Notes: generated by a model from the letters alone, not told the origin. A DNA stretch of 63,036 nucleotides, filler included, from Circinaria calcarea (GCA_051942165.1; 5 parts of 5 records of this genome joined end to end with filler, not necessarily neighbours in it); one strand, 5' to 3'; counted from the whole stretch's first letter, positions 1 to 60,864 are shown. A program made the numbers and translations.

Positions 1-326
1 GGGGGGGGGGGGGGAGGGGAAGTTATTCAGGACCTTCCAAAACAGCCTGGAAGAAAAGGATTGTAATCTCTACTACTTGAAACCTACAGGAAGGGCGAGC
101 AAGTATTCACAGCACCAAATTTTCCGAGGGTGACAGCCCAAGGGGGATGATTGCATTATAATCTCGATAGGGGGGTTAGCAAGGCATTGGAACTATGGAA
201 ACTTAGAGCCTGAAGGGGAGGGCCTACGGCGGTAAAAGGTCACGAAAGTGAGATCTCTTGAGTCAGTGGCTGGTTGAGTTGGGCATTTTGGGTCTTGGCC
301 ACCCGATTAAGCAAGAAAACACAGCT

Positions 327-2066
327 TTATGCCTTTCGCCTTCGGAACTCTACATATGGCCCATTAAAGAAACTGACAATATGGTCTTTCTGCTGGAATT
401 CGTTTACGTGCTGTTTCCCGTCCACTCCACCGCCAACTTCGCCTTCGGGTCCACTTGGTCTACGGAAGTCCAGATGCCACAGCAAAAGCGCTATCGTGTC
501 ACTCAGCTCCATTATCGCGAGTTGACGTCCAAGACATCCTCGAGGGCCCATTGAGAATGGAGTTAGCGCACTATGCGCCAGCTCGACGCTGTTATCCGCT
601 TCGCCGTGCAACCAACGCTCCGGCTTGAAGTTGAACGGGTCAGGGAAATACGCCGCGTTATGATGAATAGCGTATATGCCGGTCCCAACATCGTAGCCAG
701 CGGGTACAAAGTGACCGTCAACAAATATTCCTCCATTTTCAACTTCTCGCCACAGTGCTCCTCCGGTAGGTGGGGACATGCGAAGAGCTTCGGTAATGCA
801 AGCGTGGAGATAGCGACAAGAAGACATTGCCTGTCCCGAGCGGATATCGGAAGCCTGTACGAAAGTGTCCCGTATTTCCGCGACGAGTCTCTTGTGGCAG
901 GTGGGATAGCGAGTGAGGTAGAAGATGAGCGAAGCTAGCGCGCTTGCCGGAGAGCCAGCGCCTGTGACCATGAGAAATTTGCATTCTGACCAAAGCTCGG
1001 TCAGGGAGAACCCCTGACCGGTTTTTGGATCCTTTGCATCAGATATGAACGAGAAAAGGTCCTGTTTAGAGTCCTTGTTGCATTGTGCTCTCGATTGAGC
1101 AAATTCCCGAGCCAAAGCCAAGAACCTCCAGCCATACCATAACCCTTGGGGATAGAATATCTTCTCTAAGTGATATCTAGTAAGGTCGATCGATTGGATG
1201 TAAGCGCTGTTAAACTTATGCATAGTCGACATTACATCGACCATGTACCGGTTTCGAGGGTGAAGTTGGAGGTCAAAGCTGCGACCAAAGCAGTACTCGC
1301 TCATGATATCGAATATCAAGAATCTGCCTGGTATTGTTTTTTTAGCATTCTCCACCATTATGCATCTTAGCGGTTAACATACAGTAATCTGCAATATTGG
1401 TTGGCTGCGTCCAGCTATTGCTATCTGTTTCAGAGTTGATTAGCATGTTCTCGACGAAAACGTTAGCTTTGCTCAGTAAGGCAGGTTCAAATCGCCGTAA
1501 AATTTCTTCTGAAAGCCCTTGGCGTATGATTTTCCTCTTCCGTTGATTGACGGTTTTATCGAGAGCATTGTGAACGTTCCATGCTCCAGGCCCGGATAGG
1601 AGAGCAAGGTAAGCCTTTGATTTCTTTACATTTGTTGAGTGGTATATCTCTATAGCATTTCAGTGGCTTTCGACAGATAACAGTTAGTGCTTTACCTTGC
1701 AATCCAGTAACGCTATTTGAGAGCAAGCGGTTTGGTCCAAAACGAACGATTTCTCCTATTCAAATATCAGAGTCTGGCCGATAGCACCGATAGCTCCAGC
1801 TTTACCGTATTGCTCATGGGCGCGCAACATTGAAATATGCAAGTCGCCCTTGAAACCATGATAGGCGGCATACCAGTCGCTAATCTTGGCGAGGGTAGGG
1901 CCGGGATACTTTGCCAGAGGATGCCAGGTCAATCGATATACACTGACAATCACAATCTGCCTGGATTAGTGAGAGCTGTTCATATGAAGCTCGAGTGTGG
2001 TGCAACCTTAATAAGTACAAGCGCAACAGCTGCAACGGATAGGAGAGTAAGTGGCAGGGGTAACAT
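327..2066 (-). CDS. Cytochrome P450 (fungal, multi-exon)
   Basis: N-terminal TM anchor MLPLPLTLLSVAAVALVLIK, HPLAKYPGP motif, EALR (ExxR), KPERW and heme motif FSMGPRGCLG. GT-AG introns join ORFs 1756-1953 and 327-1358. Confidence 0.95.
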
Positions 2067-2748
2067 AGGAGCAGAAGCTGGGAATCGTATGATATGAATG
2101 AATAATGGGACTTAAGAAGTAAAGATTAGAATATTGCTTCTCAGAAGGATAAAATACAGTAGCTCATAACCATATACGCTTCAGATAGTTATATATTAAC
2201 ATAGGGATGAATAAAATCCCATTATGACCTTCAACCCTTGGTGGCGGAAAGTTTGTCAGAAGATTCCAGTAAATACGTCATCAGCAGCCTTACCTTTGGT
2301 TTAGCCCAGAGCAAACGTGTCCGGCATTAAGACCTACTTTAATGTTGCTAATTGATTCCAGCAGGACACCTTCGCTGATCCCTCACCTTTTAGTTTCATG
2401 CCGTATGTAGTCCAATCCTCCTATCTCATTGGCCGCTACTGACTACTGGACTAAGCACGGCGAAAGTATTGAGAGTGTGGATGGGCCACACCCGAAGTGA
2501 GGCACGGTACCAACCCAAATCAGCGAAAGAGTCGAGTATCAGCTGAGATAACCGTTGGAACCCAAACTCGAAATCTTAGTTGTGGTGTGAGCCCTGTGCG
2601 TCGAGCTTCAGCATCCGCTAGTCACGCCAGGCCAGGCATCATCCGCACTTACAGACCAGTACACCTTAGCAGTGGCCCAGCTTATAACAGATGCAATTAT
2701 CCTCTTATCTTCACCCAGACTGGCTTCTCGACCCATCTTTCTCCGATC

Positions 2749-3861
2749 ATGGCACAGCCCAGCATTCCCGTTCCACTCTTCGAGGCGCTAAAGCTCCGAA
2801 CCATTGGCCAAGGCAACTATGTCTTCACATTGCCAGGCTCCTTCTGTTTCGGGTCAAGTAGGTGGATCATGCATATCTTTTATTCTAATACTACTGACAG
2901 AAAGGATGGGATAGGGATTTTCGGAGGCCTGCTGATATCCTTCGTCCATCTTGCTGCAAGGGAGTATTTTACGACGACACATAGCAAGCAGGGGCAGCCG
3001 GACGTACTTAGTATGCAGCTTCAGTTCTTCCGTCTAACGTTCCCCTCTGAGGCGAGCATCTCGATCGAGGATATTCATCTTGGAAAGAGCACATCGACGA
3101 TCCAAGTGACTGTCTCGCAAGGTGGCAAGAAATGTCTGGTGGGTTATCTAAAGTAAGCCCAAAGCAGCTTCTTATTCTACGTGGGCTAAAAATCGTTGAC
3201 TAGTATGACCAACTTACAAGCCTCCAAAGGCATCTCCTTTGAGACGAGCTGGACTCTGACCCCCGCACCAATCGAGGCTTCGATCTTAATGCTTGCTGCC
3301 GATATAGATCCCCGCTGGATATCCTATCAGACCCCGTACCACCCGGAGAGTTTCAGGCGGGTGCAATCCTATTTGAAATTCTTTATTCCTTACGAGCCCG
3401 GCGATCTTACCTCGGTGGATCAATGGGTCACCCCCTCGGATCCGCAAACAACTTTTACAAATGAGAATATCGGCTTCGTAGCAGACCTCTCCCTGCCGAT
3501 CCTAGATAATTTCTATCCGAAGGAGGCGACCGGGTGTCACGCGGCAATCGTGGCGGCTGGACTCTTACAGAAAAAAGATCGAGAGAACGATATTATCCGG
3601 GTACCGGACGTTTCATCGGGTTCATACGAGACGCCCGCCATGATTATAACGTTGGCCACTAACATCGAGATCAAGAAGCGGCTGCCTATATGCGGGGTGA
3701 AATGGCTCTTCATGCGGGCGCAAGCGAAGCAGATCAAAAATGGCCGGATGGACATGGAGGTCGTTATTCTCGACGAGAAAATGGATCTCGTGGCTCTGAG
3801 CAGCCAGGTCTTGTCGATTGTGGATTTGAAACGGGTCAAGAAAACCAAACCGACACTGTAG
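2749..3861 (+). CDS. Double hot-dog fold thioesterase-like protein (acyl-CoA thioesterase II / 4HBT_3 type)
   Basis: Motifs FGGLLIS, QPDVLSMQLQF, IEDIHLGKSTSTIQV, NIEIKKRLP..GVKWLF and KNGRMDMEVVILDE. ATG at 2749; introns about 2858-2913 and 3153-3203. Confidence 0.85.
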
Positions 3862-4812
3862 CAAGTCCGTAGTAAGTAGTAGTACAATGGATTTGTAATC
3901 GACGATACTTTTACTACTGTAGACATGGATTGCTTAACCCACCACGCCCTTTAACTCCGTCGTTGAGACCAATTTAATCTCGGTACGCTAAAATGACTGC
4001 AGGCGAGCAGTACTCGATGCGCGGAAACGGGGCTTTTTCATGCCAATCAAAATTCCAAGGCTCCCACGCCGCCTTTGAGGCCCACCAGCTCGTGCATAGC
4101 ACCGAGAGAAAAGGCAACCCGTGGCACACTCCCATTAAGCCAAAAGGCTGATCAGCGGGAAACGATTTACACTTCCCCATTATAACCCGCATGCCGCTTG
4201 CGCACAATGCTCTCTACAACACCGAGTCCATCTTACCCAATGATGTTTAAAAATAGGTGGGCGGGGGGCCACGGAGGAATGCGGCACATAAGGCTCTAGG
4301 TGATCAGCTCCGGTCGACCCTAGCGTTGATGTACGGACGGAGATATCAAAGCGCTGGCATAAATCAACGCTCGTGCATCTGCAGCTTGGAGTACACTAAC
4401 GACGTGGTATTAATTGCATATGGTACGGCCCGGGGGGAATTTAATTCAGCCGCATATTGATGACGACATGGAAGGGGATTATTTCTCCGCTCGGCCGGTA
4501 TTAGGGTTATTACAATCCGATACTGAAATCATGAAATATTTTATAACATAAATTATTATAGGCTAGAGAAAAAGATTAAAAGTTATTCCGTAAATGATAA
4601 AGTGAACCTGCTCTCTTAATAGTATAGACGCAATTATGAGTTATTATATAAATTGAAAATATTTTCCCCCCCCTTTTAAAGAAAATTTAAACCAGGTGTG
4701 CTTAATGTCTAATTTCAATTTTTGCATGCCATAGATTCTGAGTAGTTACGTAGCGCTATATAATATTCAACTTCCCCTTTAGAATAGCGTGTGGCGCTGC
4801 AAGTAATATATT

Positions 4813-6239
4813 TTACCATGGTTTTAAAAACCATCCCTTTTTGGCCATGTTCATCTCGGGCGGAGGCGAAGGCCCCCTTCTGTACCACAAGGCGCGGTCT
4901 GTTGGGTCAGCCGCGCTATCCGACTCGACCCATTGACATTGAGTAAAAGACTCCCAGAGGCTAGGTAAGAATCTTCGCGTTTTGTCGGCATGGTACGTAT
5001 CTCCCATGAGCGGGATGATAGCCCTTGTGGCCTCTTCCGCATGGTAGAAAGGTATCCGTCTGCTCACAGGGTATATTAAATTCCGCAAGCCGGTTACGCA
5101 GGTGGAGGGTTTGGAGAAGAGGAAAACTTACGAGAAGAGATGATGAATCACGTGGAACTCGATGATGCCATGGAAAAAATATTTCCCGATGAATCCAAAT
5201 TCGCGGTCCATGGTTGCTGTTGCGCCTTTTATAAACGTCCAGGCTTCAGGTTCGAATTTGGGCAACTTCGGGTGTGTATGATGTAAATAGGTAATGGCTA
5301 CAATCCAGTGATTGACCCATAAGTACGGTTGCAAATAGAGGAGAAGAACCATGGAGGAACCGAGCCGCGAAGCCGCAAAACAGAGCAGTAAAATCATGGC
5401 CAAAAGACCAAAATCGGAGATCAGAATAAGATGGGCCTCTTCTCGTCTGAACAACGAGCCCATGGGGGCAAAGTGACTGTTACCCAGCCATTTCATCGAA
5501 GGGTTGGTTGGCAAGCTAGTAGGGGCAGCGGTGATGTTATTCATCAAATACCATGGCCACCCGATAAGTTGCTGCATGATAATACGTAAAAGTGTTACCG
5601 CTGGAGCGTCCTCTGTGAGGTTCTCCACGCCTTGAACTTGAGACCAGAAAGCTCTCAAGTACTCTGAACGTTTCGGTGGAACAAAGTTATGGTCCAGTTT
5701 CATATTATTAGCGTATATGTGATGCCGTCGATGGGTAGATTGCCAGGAGAAGTACGGCGTCATCAAAGCAGTGTGCAACACGAAGCCTACGATATCATTT
5801 GCAAGCTTGGAGGGTAAAAAGGCCCCGTGTCCGGACTCGTGGCCGAGTACCTAGTAGTAGTGTAAGTGACACATCATATAAAATACTGTGATGGTTGATA
5901 CCCATAACCCCGTAAATACCAATCCGTCAAACCATCCATAGAAACCCCATGCGGAGTATCGCAATAGTGAGTTTTCGATTTGAGGAATGTAGCGATGAGC
6001 GATTATCATAGATAAAACCGCCAGAGTGATATCTTGAAAGAGATAACGAAGGGATTTTCTGTAAAAGGACTCAAAGCAATAAGTAGGTATAGCACTCCGC
6101 AATTCTTGGATGCGGATTTTGGGTGAGACCCGCTTCTAACGTCAGCTTCTTAGTGCATATAAACGGTTGAATAATTAAAATATTCGCATACCCCTGGGGT
6201 AACCAGTTCTGCTGGATGAGAATCATAGTCAATAGGCAT
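4813..6239 (-). CDS. Membrane fatty-acid desaturase, delta-12/omega-3 (FAD2-like) family
   Basis: Three His boxes HESGH, HRRHH and HVIHH, plus ELRSAIP, WVNHWIVAITYLHHT and IPFYHAEEAT. Four exons; start MPIDYDSH inferred from the splice signals. Confidence 0.93.
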
Positions 6240-7367
6240 TGTAAACTGAGGGGGGAATTCAAAGGGTGTATGATATTAGCGGTTTATAATCCTAATAAGC
6301 AAGCTTGATCGTAAATTAAAAAGCATGTTCCGTGGCAGTAAAGTAGAGTCTATTGTACGGCAAAGAGTTGATATAGCTGACCTCACCTGTTCATTCTCTC
6401 TGATGTGTGTGTGGGCAGCTTTGAAATGGTGCCGTATTACCGCAGAAAATGCCTTGAAAAGCCATGACACGAATACGTGGCACAAGCTGTGTGCCTTGCT
6501 CCCACGGCTGACAATCTCATAATTGCTGATCGTTGATGTAATAGAAGTCGACATACGCCTAATTGCACAAAGAATATGTCAAGGACCAATGGCCTATAAG
6601 GCGTAGTGATAACAAGGAAACCGGATCCGAACTCGCATTACCTTAGCATATGCATAAGGAACGGCCCGGAAGGTCCCTTCCCGTTCAGATCATCCTCCCA
6701 CGACATGATTCAAAGCTACCTTAGCTTACTACTTGCTGTGCCTCATCGCCACTGCCTTATTCGAGCACCGAGAGCTGCCGCCTGAAATGCATTTGAAGAG
6801 GCATGGGTAGGTGAAAGGCTATGGGTTGGTTTCGGAGATTAGTTCCATTAGCAGTCATGCACACTAAGCGTTTTTACTTCCGTAGCCTTTTATCGAGGCA
6901 CTGCACACCATGTGCAATAATTTCCGCAATAAACTCCGAAAGGTAGGATTCTGGTCTCTACACCCTTTCAACAACCCTAACTAGTCTGGGCTTTTTCTTT
7001 TGGCCCACTCTTTTCATCCTTTACTCACGCCCTTTACCATAACCTAATCTTCTAAATTCTCTATTCACCGCCCCCCTTGTTTCTTTGCTACAGTGAGGGT
7101 GTTCTTTCGAATAACCTTGAGTTTTGCACCAGCAGGAATACAGCTCCTATGCTGTGGCTGACAGTTATGAGACACAAAAATACCGTATACTTAAGGGACT
7201 ACTTTCGGTAACCAGTTTGATTTGTCCGTCAATTTTAAACCACTACCCCTATTTGATGCCGGAGGTTTAAACTTAAAAAGGAAAACCTTTGAGAATCTTG
7301 CTTGTGAAAGATATTCGCATCATGTTTAAGTCTGCTTCAGCCAATGTCTGAATGCGGCTTTGACCTT

Positions 7368-8627
7368 TTACACGCTTTCAATCTGGGAGCCCAGGCTGAA
7401 TTCATGTTGAACATGAATCTTTCCGGGAATCTCGGGCTTCATGCTATAGTACTCTCCCTGCCCTGCAAAAGCCTCTGAACTATTACCTTGTGCATTCGTC
7501 GCAGGAAGGACTGATATGCGACCTGTACGAAATCGTGGGTTTCGAGAGTCACTGTGCGGATGCATTTGGGTTCCCTGATGTTGCTTATCAAATATGGCAT
7601 AACTTCTGGGATTCCACACCCAGGAGTAGAACAAGGAGAGCTGTTTGTTGTGGACGATGCGGACGAGGATTGGGCGGTATGTTAGGAGGCAAGCGGAGAT
7701 GAGATACATGCTTGACTCGATTAAAACCCAAAGAATTAACGGGGCCGCAAACCAAGTCCCGTCACTTGCGAACTTGTTCACAAAAAATTGAACGAATCGA
7801 ATAATTGATGTAATCAACCCTCTGCAGCAGGTCAATAAGTATTCCTTCTTAACGAGCTGGTTCTTCACTCACATGCCTGCTACCATAAACGTCATCACCA
7901 GGCCTATCTTTACGTGTCGTGCAACATGAAGGTTCCACACAACTGGAATTGGCAATATAATCATGGCAACATCTGTTATGATGTTCGGAAGACTAGCGTA
8001 TATAAAATGGACCTGGATATTGTTGCATTGGCCCCCTACCATTTTTGGGTTCCAAGCTTTGGATACAGGATTGCACTGAAAGGCGGTCGTAAATATATTA
8101 ACAATGGCAGCTATGCCCAGGATAGCAGTAAGCGTCCAACAGCAGACCCTCGAGAATCTATCCGTGAAGATGCGGAGGTAGAGAACCAAAATTGACAATT
8201 TCGGAAATGTCACTGCCGCTTGGTATATAATTGGCACAGCGTAAAAGCCATTCTTTCCCCAGCTTGGAATTTCTTCGGGCGAAGATAAGAGAATTCTTTG
8301 AATGTGATAGCCAACTCCCCACCTAATCGAGACTGGAGCGGCGATTAGTGGTAGAACGCTTTGAACTCCCTCCGAGTAAGAGCAGAAAGAAGGAGAGCAC
8401 TACTACTTACGAAGCCCGTCGATAGCTAGTCCTACCGTACAGATCCACGCCAGAATGATGAGATAGTCATCCCATCCAAATGGTGCTTTTTGATAGCGGC
8501 GAGACAAGAAACGAAGGACCACACATAAGGTATCAAGTACGATGAAGATGATACAAGTTATTCGAAGCTGATCTCCATTGAATTCGTCAAGATAGGCCTG
8601 GGTAGGCTCTGGCTCGGTGAGAGACAT
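7368..8627 (-). CDS. PTH11/SAT4-like (fungal rhodopsin-domain) integral membrane protein, no CFEM domain
   Basis: LRFLSRR..FGWDDYLI, KLSILVLYLRIF, FQCNPVSKAW, NIITDVAMIILPIPVVWNL and E..MYLISACL; three exons. Confidence 0.88.
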
Positions 8628-9149
8628 TGCGTTTATAGCAGTGAACAAGGCGAGGAAAATTATTTGCAGTATCAGGTGTCTTCAATACTTGGAAAAATAG
8701 ATTTGGCTGAAATAATAATATATTTACCTTATCGTGTAGTCAGTGGAAACTAGCGTATGGTTGGTGAAATACGTATGCAGCCATGTTGCTGATGATGAGC
8801 AAGTTTCTGCATCGGCTTGTCCATTGCGGCAATGTTCCGTGTAACCCTTACTAATGCTTAGGCAACATCTGCATCTGCGCCGCATGCACTTCGGCTTGCA
8901 GGAATAGCTCTGATGGAACAACCACACCACAGACTCCGAACATGTGTCAAAAGTAAAAGCACGATTGCGGCGTTTCTGGGGGCTGACCTGACCAGGAGTT
9001 TTCCTGATCTGCCTAAGTGATTAACCTTTTGGGCTTCACCCTACTTACGCACATTTTCTTTGAATCTGGTAAATGTTTGCCCAACGAGAAAAATACCTGC
9101 AATTACGAAGCCAAAGTTTTATCGTTGCTATTTTGGTTGGGATGATAAA

Positions 9150-10926
9150 ATGCCAACTCTTCAGTTCTCAGAAGGCCCCGAGCCTCCGAAGCCTTTACCC
9201 CATCGGAAGCAGCTCTTGAACCACATGGTCGATGGTATGGCGCAAGTGCGGCCAGAGTCGGTATGGGCAAAAATACCCTGGGACGATCTGAGCTACAATG
9301 CAGGATATCGCAAGATAACTTACAGACTATTCGCAAACGCGGTCAATGGGGTAGCATGGTGGCTCCTCCGAGAACTAGGACAATCAGAACGTTTCGATAC
9401 GTTGGCGTACTTTGGCACTTGGGATCCGCGATATATCATCTTACTTCTTGGCGCAGTAAAAGTTGGGTACAAAGTGGGTTATGGGAACCCCTCTCGCATT
9501 GTCAGTGGCCTCGACTGATGCTTATCAAGATGGTCTTTCCCTCCTCCAACTACGGATTTGTTGGTCTCGTCAGCTTGTTGGATGGCCTGAACTGCACAAC
9601 TGTTTTGACAGCCTCAAAAGAACTTCCCTCTATTGGTCGACTTCTGAAGGAGAGTCGATTGGCTGTGCATGAAATCCCAAGTCTGAGAGAGCTGCTGGAC
9701 AAAAATTATCCGCACTTCCCGTTTGACAAAACATTCCAGGCTGCACGGTTAGAGCCACTGGTAGTTGTGCATACATCTGGGTCCACTGGATTTCCTAAAC
9801 CTCTAATATATACTCATGACTGGGCTGCAAGCTGGATCCAACAGAACCAGTGGCAGCCCCCAGAAGGATATATGAGCGTGGAGCATTTGTGCCATGGTAT
9901 TGAGGTGTGTGCTATAGTGCCGCCAAATCATGTTAGTCTTACTCGTTTCGAATGCTAGAGATTTACAGTTCTACTACGCTAACAGAATAACAGGGCAGTG
10001 GCTTCTTTCCAAATCTTTTCGGGGCAGTAGCCAATCAGATGGTTGTGTTGTATCCTCTCCCTGATGCTCCACTGACACTTGGCACAACAATGGCAATGGT
10101 TGAGCAGAACAATCCTGATCTGCTTATCTCTCCACCACATGTGTTAGACGGCCTCGCGTTGGATCCTAAGCTACTCCAAGAAGTATCTTCCAAAGTTACC
10201 ATGATTGGCTTCGGAGGTGGACCGCTTTCAAAAGAGACAGGCAGAATTCTTTCGCAGTATTTTCGGCTATTCAGCATATATGGAACAAGCGAGATGGGCA
10301 TAGTTCATAAAATTGTTCCAAACGGTGTCTGGGATAATCAAGGCTGGAACAGCGTCCAAGCGCATCCAAAAGACAATATTGAATTCCGTCAGCTTCAGAG
10401 CAGTGATTACGAAGCTGTCCTGCTACGTAACCCAGAATTCGAAGAAGAACAGCCGGTCTTCAAATTGTTCCCTGAAGTAAGAGAATGGTCGACTAAGGAT
10501 ATCTTTTCTCCGGATACCAATCGAGAGGGATTCTGGATTTATCAGGGCAGAGTCGACGATCTTATCATACTCAACAATGGAATGACGGTAAATCCAGTGG
10601 GATATGAGCAGAAGATCTCAAGTAGCCCCTTGGTCGCGGGAGCATTTATGCATGGCACAGGAAGGCCTCAAGTAGCCCTGGTTATTGAGTTGCTTGCACC
10701 ACAAGAATCTCTTAACCTTAAGAATGAAAGCTTCGCTGAGCGGCTATGGCCAGCGATAAGTGAGTGTAATGAGCTGTTCCCTCCGCAGGCCTCAGTGGAC
10801 AAGTCGCACATTATCTTTACACCACCTGGCAAGCCTTTGCCACGATCGGGTAAAGGGACTGTGCAACGTGCTCCTGCGATGGAACTCTTTAGCGAAGAGC
10901 TCAACGCGCTCTACGAATACATATAG
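9150..10926 (+). CDS. Stand-alone adenylation (AMP-binding) enzyme of the NRPS-like/carboxylic-acid-reductase A-domain type
   Basis: A3 HTSGSTGFPKP, A5 YGTSE, A8 GRVDD and A10 PRSGKGTVQR. Introns about 9474-9529 and 9932-9992. Stop codon directly after the A domain. Confidence 0.9.
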
Positions 10927-11439
10927 ATAGAGATAGATTGAGTAAGTATCATGAACTTGCCAAATCCTAGTGTTTGCGTTTTTGTGCAGGCCAGGGTAAT
11001 CAAGTACTTTATAAACAATACCACGGTATGTATCTGAACATAAGCTCTGAACCAAACTGTCTGCTACTTGATATGCTCAATAATTATTCTGGTAGCTTCA
11101 TCTGCGTACTATGGTAAGCCGGTGTTTTCTTTCGACTCAACTATTTTGGTGAAATTGATTCGTCCGGAACGTAAGGAGATCTGAAAACCTTATAATATCT
11201 CGACGACCTTTGCTAGCCTACTCGGTACAGTAGCGCCCTTTGGCCTTCTTAAGGTACTTGTGAAATTGCCTCCCTCGTTATGAAAATAAATACACTTGGC
11301 AAGACCTCGGTGGAAATACGAAAGTTAAATAAATATCCAAAACGGAAGTCTGGGAAAAGCGTATAAAGTTCTTTTATTAATTATAACCGAAGTAACAAGC
11401 AGGTATGTACGAGAAAGAATAATTTTATACCGTTAACAC

Positions 11440-11644
11440 TGTCAGGCTCTATGGTTAGGGAGTGGCGATACCTCGCTTAGTTGGCGTCTTGGCGTATAGT
11501 GAAAACCTTTCACTCGCACATTACTTCTCCAGTAATGATTAGTTCTCGCATATACTGCGTATAGCCATCGTATTACTCGTGCCTCACATTACCACATACC
11601 TTAGCTTTAGATACTTTTCAAGTAAAGTACTCTACGGCCTCACA
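11440..11644 (+). mobile_element. Solo-LTR-like dispersed repeat (copy 1)
   Basis: 205 bp with termini TGTCAGGC...GCCTCACA (imperfect inverted, TG..CA). Clearly homologous to 38554-38755. Confidence 0.6.
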
Positions 11645-12560
11645 TCCAACTTGCCCCCTTTTTTCCTTTTTTTTTTCTTTTGGGGTTTCCTAAATCTAAG
11701 TTCTAAAGGGTCTATCTACTACATACGCATGGGATTCGTCGGGTCGTTAATTCACTCCCGCTCCCCGTTCCCGCGTCCTCCGTCTCCCCAGGCATCTTTT
11801 CTCTCTCTCTCTCTCTCCTCTCCGTGTGCCTGCCCACCTCCTTTCTTTTTCCGGAGACGTAATCTAGAATTAAATTGCCCCCCCGGCGGAAACGGGGGGT
11901 AGTTGAAAAGGGCGGCGTGGGAAGTTAAAAATACTCCTATATCCTAGGGAGGATACGTGTCGAGTCGGTAATATATATGGTAGCATGTATTTGTTACCTA
12001 CCTGAGTGTATAACCAAGTTAAAAACTACTTATGCCATGAAAAAAGTGCTTTTTTATTGGGGGGTATGTGTGTGTGTGGGGAGAGAGAGTAGTGTAGTGT
12101 AGAGAGCAATGGACCAACTGCAAAACGCCGTAGGTAACAAACACGGTGATTCGGTAAAGCCCCCCTATGAACTTTCCAACAAAATACGTAGGGGGGCATA
12201 AACATAATAGGAGGAGTAGCGTAAGACTCCGTGAGCGTACTCCGGGGGACGAGTGGTAAATAATGGGTTCCAACCGTATCAGGATGGGAAAAAAATCCTC
12301 CTTCCCCTTTCTTCTCCCCACAAAAAAATAAAAAAAACTCCTTCAAGACCAAATCCCAAGCTTTCGAATACAGACACGCTAAAAAGAGGGAGGCGAAGCG
12401 AGCGAGGAGAACGGGGGGATCCGCCGGAAAAAAAACCCCCCTTTTTCTCTTGGGGGGGGGTTTGTGGTGTCCAGACTTCAAAGGATTTCCCCGGGGAGGG
12501 GATTGGAGAGGAAAGGAAAGTAGGTGCCCGGCAAGGATTTAGAGTGGTAGGGTGTGGGGG

Positions 12561-16115: not shown

Positions 16116-17024
16116 TCAGCCTCGACAAGCTCCCTGTCCAGATTCGCTCTTGGGCACGTAGACGATTCCGTCGCACACCAAGCACATGATTATCTCCTTC
16201 GTCGACCACGTGCCCGAATCAGGCTGTTGGCACTTCGGACACGCAATCGGCGCTGGTCTGTTTCTCTGCCCGGCTGCTAAACCAGTCATGCCGTGGATGA
16301 TGCGGTAATGCGTTCTTTTAAGCTCCAACTTTCGCCTGATGAATTGCCTTCTGATTTCTCTGGCTATCGCGTTACTGCAAGGCAAACACGTCCATCTGCA
16401 GCGGAATACGTCAGGGCAGATACAGGTGTTGCAGCCTAGGGGGTGTTGCGTTATCTGATCTCCAGAGCAAGTGTTGCAGAGGGGCTCGGTTGTGAAACCG
16501 ACTCCATTGAGTGTCGCCCAACTTCGATTTGGGTTGCGGGGGTTCGTCATGGCTGCACCTCCTGTGCAGCTATAGCAATATCCGAGCCGGCTATCACCCT
16601 GTCTGTTATCATCTGGAGGAAGTGGCGTCCCAGGAAAATCCTTATCGCTGGCGCATATAGAGCTTTCACAGTAGCGTGTGGCGCTGTGGCTAGTCAGGCC
16701 ATTCGGACACTGAGTTATGTTCTCCTCAAGAGTGTGGTAAAAGCCGCTCCGGGACCATGACCTCAGCTGTCCTTGACATTGTGCGTCCAGGCGATGGAGA
16801 TGACGTAGATTTCTGATTAAGCCATGTAACTCTAGAGATTGCGCGAGTCGCCTGCTGCATAGACGGAGTTGTTCAACGTCGCCCATGTTAAGGTATTTGA
16901 ATATAACGTTGGTAGCATCCCTCGCAAGACAATCGAAGATAATCTCGAGTCCCGAAAGATTGGGGTTTTCCGTATCGACGCGGCTTTGTTGAAGCATCGT
17001 TGGAACTGCGTATTGTCCAGCCAT
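16116..17024 (-). CDS. Intronless hypothetical protein with an F-box-like N-terminal segment and a Cys-rich C-terminus
   Basis: 302-aa ORF. LEIIFDCL..NVIFKYLNMGDVEQLRLCSRRL resembles an F-box; several CxxC pairs follow (CYSC, CNTC, CLPC, CPKC, CLVC). Confidence 0.6.
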   Translation of the reverse strand: MAGQYAVPTMLQQSRVDTENPNLSGLEIIFDCLARDATNVIFKYLNMGDVEQLRLCSRRLAQSLELHGLIRNLRHLHRLDAQCQGQLRSWSRSGFYHTLEENITQCPNGLTSHSATRYCESSICASDKDFPGTPLPPDDNRQGDSRLGYCYSCTGGAAMTNPRNPNRSWATLNGVGFTTEPLCNTCSGDQITQHPLGCNTCICPDVFRCRWTCLPCSNAIAREIRRQFIRRKLELKRTHYRIIHGMTGLAAGQRNRPAPIACPKCQQPDSGTWSTKEIIMCLVCDGIVYVPKSESGQGACRG

Positions 17025-19400
17025 TGTGATGGCTCCTCTGTCAATGAGCTGATCTGTTTGGAGTCAAAGGCACCGATTGTAGCTGATATTGCTTTATTTT
17101 GTAGAGTGATGAGCTGTGGAATAATGTGCTGAGAGAACATCCTATAGGGACTATTATCAGTGGGATCCTAAACACCTTTATTGGTAAGGAAGGGAAGCTC
17201 CTTTGTTGCTGGGTGTCACCTTGTCTCGGCCTGGTGTGAGTCAAGACCACTGACTTTGAATAAAGACCACGAAGCATTCTTAACAATGGTATAGTTGATC
17301 TTGCACTTGGGAGACTAAAGAAAAACAATTCCATTCAAAATCGAACAATACAACCAGAGACCTACGAGTGAAGTGATTCACGAGAGTTTAAGATTAATGT
17401 TGTAGTAACCATGCCTATTAAGAAGAGAAACATGGGGAACTTGGACCTTGCATACTTTGATGCACTAGTACGGTTAATACAAGCTCAGCTTCTCATACGG
17501 CTCATCAAGAGCTTTGTTGTATGGTTAGCTTGATTATAGTAGGGACCATATAGGATATCCGTGGTACTCTATTCCACCTTGATTCCATATCTCGATTGGT
17601 GCTCTATATATCATAAGTGACACCAGCTTAGTCGAGAAGCTGAAATGTAAGTCCCTAGGTCATAGTCTACTCCTCCCAACATACTATAGCTTCCCATAGC
17701 GGGGGAGATCGCATGACCCATGAACGGCTTAGGAAGTGTCTTTTTACGATTTGCGTTGAGGCTATTCGTATCGTAATAGTTTCGACAGCAGTCTGTGACC
17801 GTAATGGCTTGGGTTCATGACGATCTTGTTGATCAGTTGACCAAGCTTTGCGCTGTGTATAGGGCACCGAACGTAATTGGATTTCGCAGAGAGACCAAAT
17901 CTGTATGGAAGAGAGCATACCTTCTCCCTATCGTGATTCGGCTCATTCGAGGAGATCTTAGGCTTGTTCTAAGCGTTCTGCTCTCTCACCCGTAAAGCTT
18001 TCTGTATACTTTGCACCATCATACCCCTCCCTTCGCTTCAGCGCTGCTTCTTCTGGTATTCCTCCTTCCATCGTATCTCGACCTATCGTAGACGCCATAC
18101 TAGTTTTTCACCCGGTTCCTCAGCGATGAGGACCGAAATTTTGCCACGGTGCCTATTTTTGAAAACCTTTCATACTTAGAGGGGGGATGGTAGGCTCTGT
18201 AGCTTCGAATAGCTGAGAGGGGTCCGTCGCAGAGTAAGACTTTGGAGTGTCTAAGGCCAAAAGGACTTCTCCGCTGTGGTATGGGAACCCTGCGAAGAGC
18301 TAAAGCATATGTCTGACAACCTTACTTTCGTTTGGGGAATGAGATAGCAGCGGAGACCAATGGGTTTGGTATCATCCTGCTACACTTTTCGCCTTCCGGC
18401 CTGCGCCTATAGATCCGATTTGAACGGATGCCAGCCGTACAGACGCGGTATTTCGCTGCTGCGCCTTCAATCTCGCATTAATGGGTATCATTCACTCGTG
18501 AGACTTTCATGTTTATTGGCAGCAAGACCGTATTTTCCAGGGCTCGTAACCTCAAATTGCCAAGTTATGCCGAAGTTTAAAAAGGGAAGACGCCCGCTAA
18601 TTTTCGTGCTCTAGTAGAAAACAGGAGCATTAAAGGGAGGGGCATTACGTCTTCAAAAGCAAATGCGCGATATGGCTGCGAAATGTATATATGTAGGTTT
18701 TGAATGCTACACATATCTGGTGGAGAAACATAGATAGAGACGTATAATAAGGAAGTGAATTAAGGGTACTTATCTAAGATTGTAAGCGCAAACACTATTC
18801 TATCAAAACAGATTGAATAGCCCCAGTCAGATGATAGAAGGCTTAATCGTGAGGAGTAAAGGATAGAGCATGATATAAAAAGAGCCTGGAGACTTTAAAA
18901 GGACTTGGGGGAATTTTGACGAGGGAGCTTTGGTGGGAATTTAAGGGGAAGAGGTAGCGGGTTGATTGACTGCTGGAGGTGAAATTGTGAGAGTTCATAA
19001 AGATTTAGAGTGTGATATAATACAATAGATGCGGAATACGCCGTGATTGTTTAACAGGATTTAGCAGTTAGTGCACAACCATATAAGAGCCAGATGCGAG
19101 AAACGACGCCGGGTTTTGACAGCGTTAAGGCTTGTCAGACAAACAAAAATCTGGGTATATGAAGAGTTCCTAGTAATACCAAGAGCCAGCTCTAAGAAGT
19201 GAAACCAACACCAGATGTCTGCAAGCGCAAGTTAAACAACAAGTAGGAATACAAAATATAAAGTGACAGGACTCACAATTCTAACATTGAACAGCCCTGT
19301 TGCAGAGGACCGTGACTGTAACGTGAGATCTTTTGATAAGCTGGAGATATGTCAGAGATGCGTCTGTTATCGCTATCAATCTGATATTCTGCGAAATTTA

Positions 19401-56653: not shown

Positions 56654-59295
56654 ATCCCACCATGCACTAAGATCTGTGAACTCGAGCGCGCTAGTAGCTG
56701 TACTTCGTAAAATGCTTGCAATAATCCAAATCTCTAGGAGACTGAAGACCCCCGAAACTCGACCTACCACGAAGCTCTGATTTGAGGGTATTCGAAGTTG
56801 TCCCATGACTTGAGAGGATTTACCTACAATTGGGAAGAATGCGAATCAATCTCAAATAGGCTTTGCAGTCATGATGGGAGAAGCAAAAAATAGGGCTACC
56901 TTACCTTTAGATGTCCAACGATAACATTCAGGGTATTAGAATATCTGTAGAGGCGCAATATATGCATTAGACTGTCTAGAAGATCAGGTTGACGGCGGGC
57001 AGGATTCTCGATTCTCATCTACCTTCCTACTCTGTAGCCAATCTATACGGCGTACGTCGTATCTTCTACCATCATAATTCAATTCGACCCATGATGCATA
57101 CCTACGCACTCTCCGATAAGAACTGCAGACACTGATCAGACGAATCCAAAACGGCGGTGGACGGGTTCCCGCCGGGTCGTCAAAGTTCCCGTCGAGACCT
57201 TGCTGTGGTTATCCCCCTGTTCTTTGCTTCTTGGCGGAAGGCTGCTATGCTGTCATCAAAAACCCCACAATCGCCCCAGCGAGCAATGAAATGAGCTTCT
57301 GAGTTTCTTCGAGACTGACAGATGAGTACGTCAATGGGCGTTTGCTGTACTCCGTTGTGAGATCCCTGGACAGCCACGACAGCTTCCCCTGTCGGTATAT
57401 CCCAGGGTCTGTAGCCTCATGCAGCGCGGCCTTCGGGGATAGTCGAATTGGTCTGCACGGAGAAAGCGACCAGTCAGACGTGGCTTGCACTCTGCAGTCG
57501 ACTTGATTTTTATGTCGCTTCCGGTATTATACTTCCGATTATCTATCCCAATTACGCTTATTCAACGCAAGCTCAAAACAAAATTGCTTCCACCCCGGAG
57601 CTACTCCAGTTGGGCAAGGATAATGTGGGCGCACCCAAGGTGAACCTCCACCATATCTTTTCTCAGGTTGTTTGATTAGCATTGGCGTGGGATCATGCCG
57701 TTGATCCACGTGGCCAAGATTAAGCTCAGGGCCAATCAAGGCACACTGGCCCGGTGCTGTTGGTATGATGCATCCCAGCATAATACGTATTCGTATGGCG
57801 TGCAAATCTTACTCTTCCTGCATCCTGTCGTCAATGGTCAAGAAATCATCTCGGTATGACACCCTCCCAAACTTCTGGTCGACCCCCCCGCCGGACTTGG
57901 CTAGGCAAGCCTCTTACCCAAAGCGCCATACACGAGAATCCCGCTCACCCGAATAATCAAGAGGCCAAAGCTTCAGGAGCATTGATTTCCACTGATTCAG
58001 CCAGATCCAGCGGTTGAATTCAGCGGACACGCGAGACACTGGGAATTAGGGCCTGAAAAGCTGGGCGTGGTAGCATGGGAGGATACGACCACTACCGCTT
58101 AGCGCACGCCCGCTGGCCGACCCCTTGTCGGTTGGGAGCAGTTGAGTGTCGCTCATTTGGCAACGATGAGCTTAGGGTCAAGGGGAAAAGGGTGAGGTGA
58201 AGATGACGCCGATTGGTAAAGCGGCCATGCAGCCCTCACGAGATGGATCTCGTCCACCCACGTATCGGTGCATCATCATCCCATGGGCTTGGTTACCCAG
58301 TAGGTACACGGCGAAAGTATCTAAACGCCTTTGCGCATCAGCAAGCGCTATGATTGCCTGCGGCCCGAAGGATCAAAGTAATATCAACATACATGCGTTC
58401 TGCACAAACGGTACCGTCCCCTTCCAGTTCCAACACGCGGGACGGCCAAGTGGACGGGTGGGCTTGGAAGATTAGGGCAGGATTAAATGGTAATTGACAG
58501 ACCAGGAGGACCCGGGAAGGACGAACAGGGCCTGCACGTTATCCCATGGATGAGACACGCCCCAGCTCCATGTCCCGCGCTCCCCGAACCCGTCCTCTCG
58601 AAGCTTCGTCTGAAGTGTCAGGAGCACTCGTGTCTCGAAGTGCTTACAGACCTCCCTAGTCCTGAAGCTGTGCATATATCTGGGCCAAGAATGAGATCTG
58701 TGATCCATGTCAGGCGCTGTCATCATCGAAACGCCCATACCGGGTCTCTGGTGTAGGACTCACCGCCATGCTTCGACTTGGTCTGTAGCGTCTAAGCTGC
58801 CGGAAGCTTCTTACTGGTCGATCCTCGACCACTTACATAAACTTCTACTCTTTATCCCTCTCCATACTCCAGGTCACACAAATACCAACTTCGCGTGCCC
58901 TTCTAATCCTTAATGCTAGTCATCCAGATTCATCCGATCCTCCCAGCGCTTCATCTTGTATCACTGAACCTGCCATTAGACCTTTAGCCTGTCATCTTCG
59001 ACTGCGAAGTTGCATACTGGTACAGTTTCAGCTTCGGTCCGGGGACGAATACCGTCCCCAAACTCTCGGCGCCGTGGCGGCTACATCTCCACTGCTCACC
59101 TTGCCCCCATTCCCACCGTTCCCGGGGCCTTATTCTTTTACGGAGTTGGAAGAACGCATCGCCGATTTCAGGTTTAACATCCATCAGTCCATCTCAGAAA
59201 TAAAAGAGGATAGCAGCCATTGGGCGGAAGAGAGGAATGGTCAACGTTACGACGCCCGGGGGGAAAACAGCTTCCCAAACAGTCATATTTGCCAT

Positions 59296-60864
59296 ATGTC
59301 GCAGAAACCGGTCACGGCTGGCAAGGAATCCCAGCCTCCCCCGGATCGAGACCAGGCTAGGTTTTTCCCACGACAGGCGCTGCCTCCCATAGTTGACCCT
59401 TCGAGATTCACGTCATCTCGACCTAGCGAGCATAGTCCTCCTGCATTCGGGAATCCGCCAGCAACGACAGATTCACCGCGAGGAATACTTTCAGAGACCT
59501 CCTCAAACGATGCCGAACAGAGACCGTCTCGTCCGATCAGGATGCACAGTATCCTTAATCCACCCAGTGCTATGGAAGATCGAGTCCCCCAGAGGCCGCC
59601 TTCAAATGCGGAATCTCCGGAAACATCGATTTCAAGCGCTTCATGGCGCCCATCAGATCGCTCGACCCAATCACCAAGCAGTATTTCGACCGCTGGGACG
59701 AATCTGCCCGGCATGAGGGTTCATTCAATGTCTGCTGCTCCGATCAACCGTCCACCCTTAGCCCAGAATCCTGCTGTCAGCCGAGTTGCTAGTCTCGGAT
59801 CAATCGGTCTTCCAAGCGCTACGATCGATGCTAAAAGATCACCATTTCTCTCAGGTCGAGGTCATCAATATCCTCCAGACGTTAGCAATATACCTCTTCC
59901 TGCTGTACCCGTGGGGTACACTCCGCCTGTCGTTTCGCGCACATCCTATGGCTTTCCAATGCAAAAAACGTCGACTCGTCCCGACCGCCGGGGATTAGAA
60001 GTATTGTCTCAAGCGCCTGCGTCACAGAGTGACAGTCCCAGTACATCTTATTCATCTTATAGTCAGCTCAGTCATCCTTCACCTGCTCCGCAGCAATACC
60101 ATCTACCGCCCACACAGGTTTCCTCCTCTGCGCACCTCGGACCACTGGTGACGACACGCGGAGCGGGGCCTGATGACCATCATATCACCATCGGTTCGGA
60201 GAGGAATTACGGGCCGGTGACGAGTGCAGTAGGACAGAGTACATATCAGCTCATGACTCTCGACACGGACCAAGGTCCTATTCAGGTACCTGTTGACGTG
60301 CAAGCTGCTTCGAAAATGGCTGACGAGAAACGAAAGCGCAACGCCGGTGCCTCTGCGCGATTTCGCCAACGTCGGAAAGAGAAAGAACGGGAGTCTTCCC
60401 AGACCATTTCAAAATTGGAGAGTCAAATCCGAGAGATAGGCGAAGAAAGGGAATACTACAGGCAAGAGAGGGACTACTTCCGCAGTCTGGTCTACAGTAC
60501 GTCTGCGCAAGGCCAGGTAGTACCACGTCTTCCTTCGCCCAGGCAGCGCAAGCTCGTTCATCCTGAACCATCGGCGCCACCTGTCAACGGGCAATGGCAG
60601 CAGTCGGAGGAACGCGGGGGGCAAACGGGACGGAATACGCGGCGGCGAATCGGTGCCTATACACCAGTATACGAGCTTCCTCCGTCGACAATGGCAGCAC
60701 CCGATCAAACGCCAATATATTCGACTTCGCCGTCGCTACCGTTTGCGCACCCTGCACCTCGGGCACCAGTTTCTGTTGGAAGACAGTCTATCTCGAGCAT
60801 ACCCCCGCCCCGTTCCGGGCCCGGTCTTCCTTCGGCGCCCCCCAGTTGGAATCACCTTCGTTGA
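59296..60864 (+). CDS. bZIP transcription factor
   Basis: Basic region DEKRKRNAGASARFRQRRKEKE plus a heptad zipper (ISKLESQIREIGEEREYYRQERDYFR), preceded by QGPIQVPVDVQAASK; S/P-rich flanks. First ATG at 59296. Confidence 0.9.
   Translation: MSQKPVTAGKESQPPPDRDQARFFPRQALPPIVDPSRFTSSRPSEHSPPAFGNPPATTDSPRGILSETSSNDAEQRPSRPIRMHSILNPPSAMEDRVPQRPPSNAESPETSISSASWRPSDRSTQSPSSISTAGTNLPGMRVHSMSAAPINRPPLAQNPAVSRVASLGSIGLPSATIDAKRSPFLSGRGHQYPPDVSNIPLPAVPVGYTPPVVSRTSYGFPMQKTSTRPDRRGLEVLSQAPASQSDSPSTSYSSYSQLSHPSPAPQQYHLPPTQVSSSAHLGPLVTTRGAGPDDHHITIGSERNYGPVTSAVGQSTYQLMTLDTDQGPIQVPVDVQAASKMADEKRKRNAGASARFRQRRKEKERESSQTISKLESQIREIGEEREYYRQERDYFRSLVYSTSAQGQVVPRLPSPRQRKLVHPEPSAPPVNGQWQQSEERGGQTGRNTRRRIGAYTPVYELPPSTMAAPDQTPIYSTSPSLPFAHPAPRAPVSVGRQSISSIPPPRSGPGLPSAPPSWNHLR

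What the first reader, a model, noticed from the sequence alone, without database searches (positions are those of the whole stretch)
327..10926. Candidate PKS/NRPS-free lipid-modification cluster: P450 + thioesterase + desaturase + receptor-like protein + stand-alone adenylation enzyme
Seen: five consecutive, apparently intact genes fill contig 1 with no housekeeping gene between them. Two pairs are divergent (P450/thioesterase and PTH11-like/A-domain). Known: these families activate (adenylation), desaturate (FAD2-type), oxidise (P450) and release (hot-dog thioesterase) acyl chains, and SAT4/PTH11-like genes occur in fungal secondary-metabolite clusters. Inference: a self-contained pathway for a modified fatty acid (oxylipin-, alkyne- or hydroxy-acid-like), possibly with its own sensor, that core-gene-based miners would miss. 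I do not recognise it as a described cluster. The contig starts ~300 bp past the P450, so a core synthase could lie off-contig.
Basis: partly seen in the sequence, partly recalled or inferred. Interest (0 to 1): 0.78.

Follow-up and report, generated by a model that had tools for sequence, protein, structure and literature searches.

The report
Conserved fungal fatty-acid-modifying gene cluster
Five neighbouring genes in a lichen fungus have counterparts that also sit together in distantly related fungi and switch on together in a crop pathogen, and they likely turn an ordinary fatty acid into an exported chemical that appears to be unidentified.

Summary
The cluster is real. Window 1-12560 is one whole contig of a lichen fungus (NCBI records name Circinaria calcarea). 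It holds five intact genes: P450, hot-dog thioesterase, FAD2-like desaturase, PTH11-like membrane protein and a stand-alone adenylation enzyme.

Locus tags link desaturase and P450 in six other species from four ascomycete classes. In Sclerotinia sclerotiorum the order is exporter, P450, one unidentified gene, desaturase, membrane protein, adenylation enzyme. Published tables show those six genes co-expressed in 9 of 9 analyses, with no PKS or NRPS among them and no product assigned; five are induced in canola.

The desaturase falls in a clade apart from the genome's two other FAD2-like genes. It has Gly before His-box I, a marker of divergent plant FAD2s, but lacks the acetylenase motif. The P450 clade has lost the I-helix acid. 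Relatives of the desaturase also sit in a second cluster layout (P450, exporter, DUF829, PAQR).

Best reading, inferred: a pathway that modifies, trims, oxidises, activates and exports a fatty acid. Substrate, product and step order are untested. antiSMASH does flag the Sclerotinia locus. I found no description of the cluster, but could not search MIBiG.

The parts
327..2066 (-). Cytochrome P450, 512 aa, 5 exons (2066-2007, 1956-1806, 1755-1696, 1649-1383, 1327-327). ExxR, PERW and heme-Cys motifs intact; I-helix reads TGAGSPA, without the usual Asp/Glu.
2749..3861 (+). Double hot-dog (TesB-type) acyl-CoA thioesterase, 334 aa, 3 exons (2749-2857, 2915-3152, 3204-3861); NCBI Q9187_003417. Divergent from the P450 across 682 bases.
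4813..6239 (-). Divergent FAD2-like membrane desaturase, 415 aa, 4 exons (6239-6192, 6135-5902, 5850-5132, 5059-4813); His boxes G-HESGH, HRRHH, HVIHH. NCBI Q9187_003418 is a shorter, 327-aa model of it.
7368..8627 (-). Fungal rhodopsin-domain (PTH11/SAT4-like) membrane protein, 376 aa, 3 exons (8627-8411, 8332-7873, 7821-7368); no CFEM domain seen.
9150..10926 (+). Stand-alone adenylation enzyme of the carboxylic-acid-reductase A-domain type, 552 aa, 3 exons (9150-9473, 9530-9931, 9994-10926); core motifs intact; no T or R domain.
1..19 (.). G-run at the contig end, where the assembly breaks 326 bases past the P450; an MFS exporter lies on this side in S. sclerotiorum.

Best explanation
This is a conserved gene cluster with no PKS or NRPS in view, and it likely converts a membrane C18 fatty acid into an oxidised, exported acyl metabolite. 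Shown: five intact genes, linkage kept across four ascomycete classes, and co-expression of the matching S. sclerotiorum block (published tables). Inferred steps, order uncertain: (1) the divergent FAD2 acts at or near C12 of oleate or linoleate with non-standard chemistry (a further or conjugated double bond or an epoxide; a triple bond is less likely); (2) the chain enters the CoA pool and is probably shortened in the peroxisome, where the TesB-type thioesterase releases it as a free acid; (3) the P450, lacking the I-helix acid, oxidises or rearranges it, with the substrate's own group helping catalysis; (4) the A enzyme adenylates the carboxylate to give a lactone, ester, amide or CoA thioester; (5) an MFS pump, off-contig here, exports it. 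The PTH11-like protein is probably a regulatory or accessory member.
For: Linkage. Ten other named species appear in both the desaturase list (best 120 of 389 hits shown) and the P450 list (best 120 of 141 shown). In 6 of 10 the two genes lie 1-4 gene numbers apart on one contig: Botryotinia convoluta BCON_0161g00260/00240, S. sclerotiorum sscle_07g056590/056610, Bogoriella megaspora M1820_010509/010507, Pyrenula ochraceoflavens Q9227_000943/944, Heterodermia Q9195_008510/509 and Pseudovirgaria KAF2758480/476. The thioesterase M1820_010508 lies between the Bogoriella pair, and Bathelium has TE M1821_005717 beside P450 005716. The best relative of the A enzyme among 1.84 billion representatives is a 552-aa stand-alone A from Bogoriella, 60% identical. 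In S. sclerotiorum, SS1G_03435-03440 read MFS, P450, (03437 not listed), desaturase, PTHR33048 membrane protein, 548-aa A, which is the window's order. sscle_07g056570-056620 score 1 in all nine co-expression runs, while six flanking genes (540, 550, 560, 630, 640, 650) do not occur in that file. The five listed genes are up 2.7-5.3-fold at 12 h in canola, and the A gene reaches 1683 FPKM. Control: among 27 metagenome loci of 8 kb or more, a related P450 (summed tblastn bits >300) sits near 8 of 11 Gly-type desaturases and 0 of 15 Ala-type ones; 1 locus was unclassified, and rows repeat species. Specialisation: the genome has two other FAD2-like genes, both Ala-type, 36-39% identical. The desaturase lies in a 41-row clade apart from them (SH-aLRT 97); 62 of 71 homologues that hold box I have Gly before it, a marker of divergent plant FAD2s (PMC3554562). 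Fifteen of 120 P450 hits share the acid-less I-helix; the 14 of them placed in the tree form one clade with the window's enzyme (99). Eighteen of 35 TE hits end in QKL, QRL, SKL, SRL or SKM.
Against: No substrate, product or activity was tested. Full five-gene linkage is not shown by sequence in any other genome. The gene between desaturase and P450 in S. sclerotiorum is labelled 'mgPKS' in the paper's table, and no named S. sclerotiorum or B. convoluta thioesterase came up. The S. sclerotiorum A and membrane genes are matched by annotation, length and position only. The Bogoriella A gene is on a separate 11.3-kb contig. In 3 of the 10 species (Melanomma, Pyrenula sp., Zopfia) the listed desaturase and P450 are on different contigs, and Alectoria could not be compared. 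One Ala-type locus dropped by the 8-kb cut (L023/L024) does carry related P450s at 33%. None of the 59 metagenome loci carries the TE, and one carries the A. The window's own TE ends in PTL, not a recognised peroxisomal signal. The Gly marker comes from plants and does not say which chemistry. Rhodopsin-domain genes number at least 72 in this genome, so one in the block is weak evidence by itself. The three promoter regions share no more 6- to 9-mers than shuffles. Both contig ends are open.
Confidence: 0.6

Rival explanations
1. The genes are the tailoring or precursor arm of a larger pathway whose PKS, NRPS or fatty acid synthase sits off-contig or elsewhere in the genome, as with the oxidised acyl side chains of apicidin or AK-toxin.
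For: More distant P450 relatives (38-44%) carry names transferred from apf7, apf8, APS8 and AKT7. The contig breaks 326 bases past the P450. A stand-alone A could load a carrier encoded elsewhere.
Against: The co-expressed S. sclerotiorum block stops at six genes, and its 28-gene antiSMASH region lists no type I PKS or NRPS. The apf/APS8/AKT7-named proteins fall outside the window's clade in the tree.
Confidence: 0.15
2. The cluster is catabolic or protective: it remodels membrane lipids, or degrades and expels a host or competitor lipid, and makes no product of its own. The desaturase could be this genome's omega-3 enzyme.
For: Induction in planta, a drug-efflux-type MFS, a receptor-like protein and a likely peroxisomal TE all fit a response module. 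Two searches found only three FAD2-like genes in this fragmented genome, none of another type.
Against: An ATP-spending stand-alone A enzyme and a dedicated desaturase clade fit synthesis better (inference). The distribution is patchy: the S. sclerotiorum A gene's best hit in the paper's table is 37% to Lasallia, not to Botrytis.
Confidence: 0.15
3. The cluster makes a jasmonate-like cyclic oxylipin: desaturase to linolenate, P450 as a hydroperoxide-rearranging enzyme, A enzyme as ligase, TE as release after beta-oxidation.
For: The gene set mirrors parts of the plant route (PMC7869668 passages). The P450 lacks the I-helix acid, as hydroperoxide-using P450s do (recalled).
Against: No lipoxygenase, cyclase or reductase is in the block. 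The heme loop is the ordinary FxxGxRxCxG, without the CYP74 insertion (the CYP74 feature is recalled). No Fusarium oxysporum or Lasiodiplodia protein is named among the 120 desaturase hits listed.
Confidence: 0.05
4. The cluster makes aspicilin, the C18 macrolactone typical of Circinaria.
For: Aspicilin is the marker metabolite of the genus (PMC12137943 passages); a P450 and an A enzyme could close a lactone (inference).
Against: That paper limits aspicilin to Circinaria within its group, while the cluster recurs in Sclerotiniaceae, Trypetheliales and Pyrenulales. From recall, aspicilin is saturated around C12 and looks like a reducing-PKS product.
Confidence: 0.03
5. The five genes are neighbours by chance.
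For: P450, rhodopsin-domain and A-domain genes belong to large families in this genome.
Against: Linkage in six other species, the same order in S. sclerotiorum, the co-expression, and the 8/11 versus 0/15 control.
Confidence: 0.02

Closest known systems
S. sclerotiorum predicted region 07_2, genes sscle_07g056570-056620 = SS1G_03435-03440 (PMC6941272, PMC5372324)
   Same: P450 54% and desaturase 62% identical over full length; same gene order; A-only enzyme of 548 aa; membrane protein in the same place.
   Different: It has an MFS exporter that is off-contig or absent here. It was listed only as one of 80 predicted regions, with no product, mechanism or cross-class comparison in the sections I read.
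Bacterial alkyne/polyyne clusters (jamABC; caryoynencin, protegencin, cepacin; PMC8406139)
   Same: Similar logic: an adenylating enzyme, desaturase chemistry and a thioesterase acting on a fatty acid with no PKS; some actinobacterial versions carry a P450.
   Different: No acyl carrier protein, no rubredoxin, one FAD2-type enzyme instead of three desaturases, and an A domain of the carboxylic-acid-reductase type. An analogy, not shared descent as far as tested.
Divergent plant FAD2 enzymes (acetylenases, conjugases, epoxygenases) and the tomato falcarindiol cluster (the cluster is recalled, not read)
   Same: FAD2 fold with three His boxes and Gly before box I; clustering of a divergent FAD2 with downstream enzymes.
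   Different: A fungal clade of its own; lacks the (D/N)VX(H/N) acetylenase motif; partners are P450, TE and A instead of a decarbonylase.
Fungal NRPS-like carboxylic acid reductases (A-T-R)
   Same: A domain of the same family (AMP-binding_C_3; 33-39% to proteins of about 1000-1100 aa).
   Different: No T or R domain; the stand-alone form recurs in Bogoriella, locus L006 and S. sclerotiorum.
Apicidin (APS7/8, apf7/8) and AK-toxin (AKT7) cluster P450s
   Same: Same broad P450 group; those enzymes are thought to oxidise acyl chains (recalled).
   Different: Only 38-44% identical, another clade, canonical I-helix, and their clusters have NRPS, PKS or FAS cores.

Membership tests
Fungal metabolic gene cluster | Linkage of unrelated enzyme genes conserved across distant species | tested here: met
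   Desaturase-P450 linked in 6 of 10 comparable named species from four classes; TE linked in Bogoriella and Bathelium.
Fungal metabolic gene cluster | Co-expression with sharp borders | tested here: met
   Met for the matching S. sclerotiorum block, from published tables: 9 of 9 runs, six flanking genes absent. Not tested in Circinaria.
Fungal metabolic gene cluster | A product that depends on the genes | not testable with these tools
   None assigned in Table 1 of PMC6941272.
PKS/NRPS cluster | A PKS or multi-domain NRPS in the cluster | tested here: not met
   None on the contig and none in the six-gene S. sclerotiorum block. The Circinaria flanks could not be read.
NRPS-like carboxylic acid reductase (A-T-R) | Adenylation domain with intact core motifs | tested here: met
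   P-loop, YGTSE, GRVDD and terminal Lys motifs present (motif roles recalled); Pfam.
NRPS-like carboxylic acid reductase (A-T-R) | Thiolation and reductase domains | tested here: not met
   Stop after the A domain and no remnant downstream.
Bacterial alkyne/polyyne cluster | Acyl carrier protein beside ligase and desaturase (jamABC) | tested here: not met
   No such gene on the contig; definition from PMC8406139.
Bacterial alkyne/polyyne cluster | Three desaturases, thioesterase and rubredoxin | tested here: not met
   One desaturase, one thioesterase, no rubredoxin.
FAD2-type acetylenase | Three His boxes, with Gly before box I | tested here: met
   marker from PMC3554562.
FAD2-type acetylenase | (D/N)VX(H/N) motif before His-box III | tested here: not met
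   Window reads GIIE; 0 of 114 homologues with box III fit the motif.
FAD2-type acetylenase | Forms a triple bond in linoleate | not testable with these tools
   Needs expression and GC-MS.
Housekeeping fungal delta-12 desaturase | Groups with standard delta-12 enzymes; Ala before box I | tested here: not met
   Separate clade from C474 and C4477, which have Ala. The tree has no enzyme of tested function, so calling those two standard rests on recalled motifs.
Canonical P450 monooxygenase | ExxR, PERF/W and heme-Cys motifs | tested here: met
Canonical P450 monooxygenase | I-helix acid-alcohol pair (A/G)Gx(D/E)T | tested here: not met
   Gly replaces the acid, Ser or Thr is kept, Pro follows, in the window and in 15 of 120 hits.
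CYP74-type allene oxide synthase | Insertion in the heme-binding loop and I-helix Asn (recalled) | tested here: not met
   Ordinary heme loop, no Asn at that place.
Peroxisomal TesB-type acyl-CoA thioesterase | Double hot-dog domains with conserved catalytic Asp | tested here: met
   Pfam 4HBT_3 and 4HBT_3C; D210 kept in 90% or more of 33 aligned; weak PDB hit 3bbj, E 0.03. The Asp's role is recalled.
Peroxisomal TesB-type acyl-CoA thioesterase | C-terminal PTS1 signal | tested here: inconclusive
   18 of 35 hits end in PTS1-like tripeptides; the window's ends in PTL.
PTH11-like receptor | Fungal rhodopsin domain | tested here: met
   PF20684 across three exons.
PTH11-like receptor | Ligand sensing or G-protein coupling | not testable with these tools
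   No data.

The most novel reading that the evidence does not exclude
This is one member of an undescribed, widespread ascomycete cluster family built on a dedicated FAD2 clade. It would be a carrier-free fungal counterpart of bacterial polyyne loci that makes an acetylenic or conjugated fatty-acid antibiotic or signal, using a P450 with non-standard chemistry. It occurs in two layouts (TE plus A, or DUF829 plus PAQR) in lichens, plant pathogens and a mycoparasite.
Probability: 0.2. Interest if true: 0.87.

Novelty: new variant of a known kind. Interest (0 to 1): 0.66.

Why it matters
Clusters that modify fatty acids without a PKS are known from bacteria and, from recall, from plants; my searches found none described for ascomycetes. 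This one is kept across four fungal classes and is strongly expressed and host-induced in a major crop pathogen with a finished genome and routine genetics. An orphan lichen pathway can therefore be solved in a culturable fungus. It offers a new FAD2 clade and an unusual P450 clade as possible catalysts for industrial fatty acids, and a use for the many stand-alone A enzymes in fungal genomes. The second layout has no A gene, so core-gene miners probably would miss it.

Tried and rejected
Contig extension and expression in Circinaria: no sequencing run was listed, so no reads were laid; this says nothing either way. Exporter: a metagenome MFS query found three similar genes (46-49%) on contigs C987, C1212 and C2840; none overlaps the end of C560, and G-rich ends are common in this assembly, so none could be linked. 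DUF829 hits in the genome are only 33% and lie on other contigs. Shared promoter motif: none above shuffles. Structures: the thioesterase fold job never returned; no P450 model was made. PDB sequence searches gave only generic P450s, one weak thioesterase and one weak acetyl-CoA synthetase. The Atlas returned only the general desaturase family. Earlier scan notes: none. Paper searches for a description gave 0 papers, all strict multi-term or gene-id searches; one search gave only the transcriptome paper. The main texts of PMC7530617 and PMC11381361 do not mention desaturases; their supplements were not examined and may list this family unnamed. PMC7692509 (feldin) has no gene data. Two JBC papers on FAD2 determinants were not held. 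The desaturase tree is the quick one; the careful search did not finish. Chance adjacency, aspicilin and a CYP74-type route were judged unlikely for the reasons given under rivals.


Full report
Observation. Window 1-12560 is the whole of contig C560 in a fragmented 31.5-Mb fungal assembly of 5512 contigs. Five genes fill it, each splicing with GT-AG introns into an open frame: P450 (512 aa, minus), double hot-dog thioesterase (334 aa, plus), FAD2-like desaturase (415 aa, minus), rhodopsin-domain protein (376 aa, minus) and a stand-alone adenylation enzyme (552 aa, plus). Pfam confirms each family. Identical NCBI proteins on a 12,560-base contig name the organism as the lichen fungus Circinaria calcarea. 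No T or R domain follows the A gene.

Linkage in other fungi. I had no eukaryotic genome browser, so I used locus tags and contig lengths from protein searches. Ten other named species occur in both the desaturase list (best 120 of 389) and the P450 list (best 120 of 141). In six the genes are 1-4 numbers apart on one contig: Botryotinia convoluta, Sclerotinia sclerotiorum, Bogoriella megaspora, Pseudovirgaria hyperparasitica (accessions), Pyrenula ochraceoflavens and Heterodermia. With Circinaria these span Lecanoromycetes, Leotiomycetes, Dothideomycetes and Eurotiomycetes. In three species the listed genes are on different contigs, and their P450s lie outside the window's clade (two placed; Zopfia judged by 39% identity and a canonical I-helix). 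Alectoria could not be compared. The thioesterase sits between P450 and desaturase in Bogoriella and beside the P450 in Bathelium. The A enzyme's best relative is a stand-alone A from Bogoriella, 60% identical, on a separate short contig.

The S. sclerotiorum locus. Supplementary rows of PMC5372324 give SS1G_03435 MFS, 03436 P450, 03438 delta-12 desaturase, 03439 PTHR33048 membrane protein and 03440 A-only enzyme of 548 aa, all induced 2.7-5.3-fold at 12 h on canola; 03437 is not listed. That PTHR33048 is the PTH11-like family is my recall. This is the window's gene order plus an exporter past the P450. In PMC6941272, sscle_07g056570-056620 are co-expressed in all nine runs, and six flanking genes do not occur in the file. 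Region 07_2 lists no type I PKS or NRPS and no product. The A gene reaches 1683 FPKM, and its best outside hit was 37% to Lasallia, whereas most rows of that table hit Botrytis or S. borealis. Two limits apply. The gene in the thioesterase position is labelled 'mgPKS' and I could not see its sequence. The A and membrane genes are matched by annotation, length and position, not by alignment.

Control and a second layout. A metagenome scan gave 59 desaturase loci. Among the 27 of 8 kb or more, a related P450 lies near 8 of 11 desaturases with Gly before His-box I and near 0 of 15 with Ala; one was unclassified, and rows repeat species. One Ala-type locus under the cut (L023/L024) has P450s at 33%. 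Most Gly-type loci show a different layout: desaturase, P450 and MFS with a DUF829 protein and a PAQR/HlyIII protein, sometimes a PTH11-like gene. None of the 59 loci has the thioesterase; L006 has a stand-alone A two kilobases from the desaturase. The rhodopsin genes of L020 and L037 are 43-45% identical to the window's second exon, against 38% for its best-scoring paralogue among at least 71 others in its own genome.

The enzymes. The genome has two other FAD2-like genes, both with Ala before box I and 36-39% identity. The cluster enzyme lies in a separate 41-row clade (SH-aLRT 97; quick tree of 62 rows, with no enzyme of tested function in it). Gly precedes box I in 62 of the 71 homologues that hold it. 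PMC3554562 cites this Gly as typical of divergent plant FAD2s other than hydroxylases; I recall that hydroxylases have it too, so it does not pick a chemistry. The acetylenase motif before box III is absent in all 114 homologues that hold the box. The P450 keeps its heme motifs, but Gly replaces the I-helix acid and Pro follows the Ser/Thr, in the window and 15 of 120 hits; three distant hits lack the acid in other ways. Fourteen of the 15 were put in a 40-row tree and form one clade with the window's enzyme (99); the P450s of the second layout form another group with the normal motif. Thioesterase relatives mostly end in peroxisomal-type tripeptides (18 of 35), though the window's does not.

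Mechanism. I commit, at 0.6, to a self-contained route from a membrane C18 fatty acid to an exported oxidised acid, lactone, ester or amide: FAD2 modification near C12, probable peroxisomal trimming and release by the thioesterase, P450 oxidation or rearrangement, adenylation, and export. Every chemical step is inferred from family membership and motifs; none was tested. Rivals are a tailoring arm of a split PKS/NRPS pathway (0.15), a catabolic or membrane-remodelling module (0.15), a jasmonate-like route (0.05), aspicilin (0.03) and chance (0.02).

Comparison and novelty. It works like bacterial alkyne/polyyne loci in logic (ligase, desaturase, thioesterase) but fails their membership tests: no carrier protein, no rubredoxin, one desaturase. 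It is not an A-T-R reductase and not shown to be an acetylenase cluster. The S. sclerotiorum copy has been catalogued as a predicted region, so the claim that miners would miss it holds at most for the second layout. Paper searches found no description. They were strict, the library lacks most subscription journals, and MIBiG could not be searched, so prior description is not excluded. Verdict: a real, conserved, apparently uncharacterised cluster; a new variant of a known kind; interest 0.66.

Papers seen. PMC6941272: abstract, sections 5, 6 and 26, passages, searched rows of supplements 2-4, and part 1 of 2 of supplement 4. PMC5372324: passages and supplement rows. PMC3554562, PMC8406139, PMC12137943, PMC7869668, PMC7692509, PMC7530617: passages only. 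PMC11381361: term search with no hits. Recalled without a call: the tomato falcarindiol cluster, aspicilin's structure, CYP74 features, TesB catalytic residues, PTS1 rules and A-domain motif roles.

Noticed in passing
L008:917-11006, L012:512-11018, L017:1477-11013, L018:2947-10984, L020:78-12615: Second cluster layout around the same desaturase clade: related P450 with a normal I-helix, an MFS gene (Pfam-confirmed in L012, L018 and L020), DUF829 (in L008, L012, L017, L018) and PAQR/HlyIII (in L012, L017, L018, L020), with a PTH11-like gene in L008 and L020; no A enzyme or thioesterase seen.
   Followed up: partly
L037:1426-17424 and L019:2574-10915: Further variants: desaturase with P450, putative cyclase, alpha/beta hydrolase, PTH11-like gene, SDR, MBOAT and Zn2Cys6 regulator (L037); desaturase with SDR, fragmentary P450 and Zn2Cys6 regulator (L019).
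   Followed up: partly
L023:3-6088: An Ala-type desaturase of a sister clade beside two P450s and a DUF302 gene; possibly another small cluster.
   Followed up: no
window 5851-5901: An intron just before His-box I appears shared by most Gly-type desaturase loci (a stop or Gln precedes the box in six-frame reading), a possible marker of the clade.
   Followed up: partly
P0261, P0267, P0268, P0270 (Botrytis byssoidea, B. tulipae, B. cinerea): Thioesterases of this clade occur in Botrytis species, several as short or gapped models, with no desaturase from these species among the hits listed; possibly remnants of a lost cluster.
   Followed up: no
L071 (G000:C987) and L072 (G000:C1212): MFS genes similar to the cluster exporter sit near rhodopsin-domain-like frames on both contigs; C987 also has a frame that looks like a UbiA prenyltransferase (by eye, not scanned).
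   Followed up: no
window 12661-63036: The other four contigs hold ordinary genes: a beta-glucosidase-like start (by eye), PH-like protein, PP2C-like protein, aminotransferase, histone deacetylase, GAPDH, alpha-amylase family enzyme, Clp ATPase, amidase and SMP-30 lactonase. A 691-aa frame at 58789-60864 and a 315-aa frame at 16116-17063 had no Pfam hit.
   Followed up: partly
window 4813-5059: The NCBI model of the desaturase (327 aa) is shorter than the 415-aa model here and appears to miss the last exon.
   Followed up: partly
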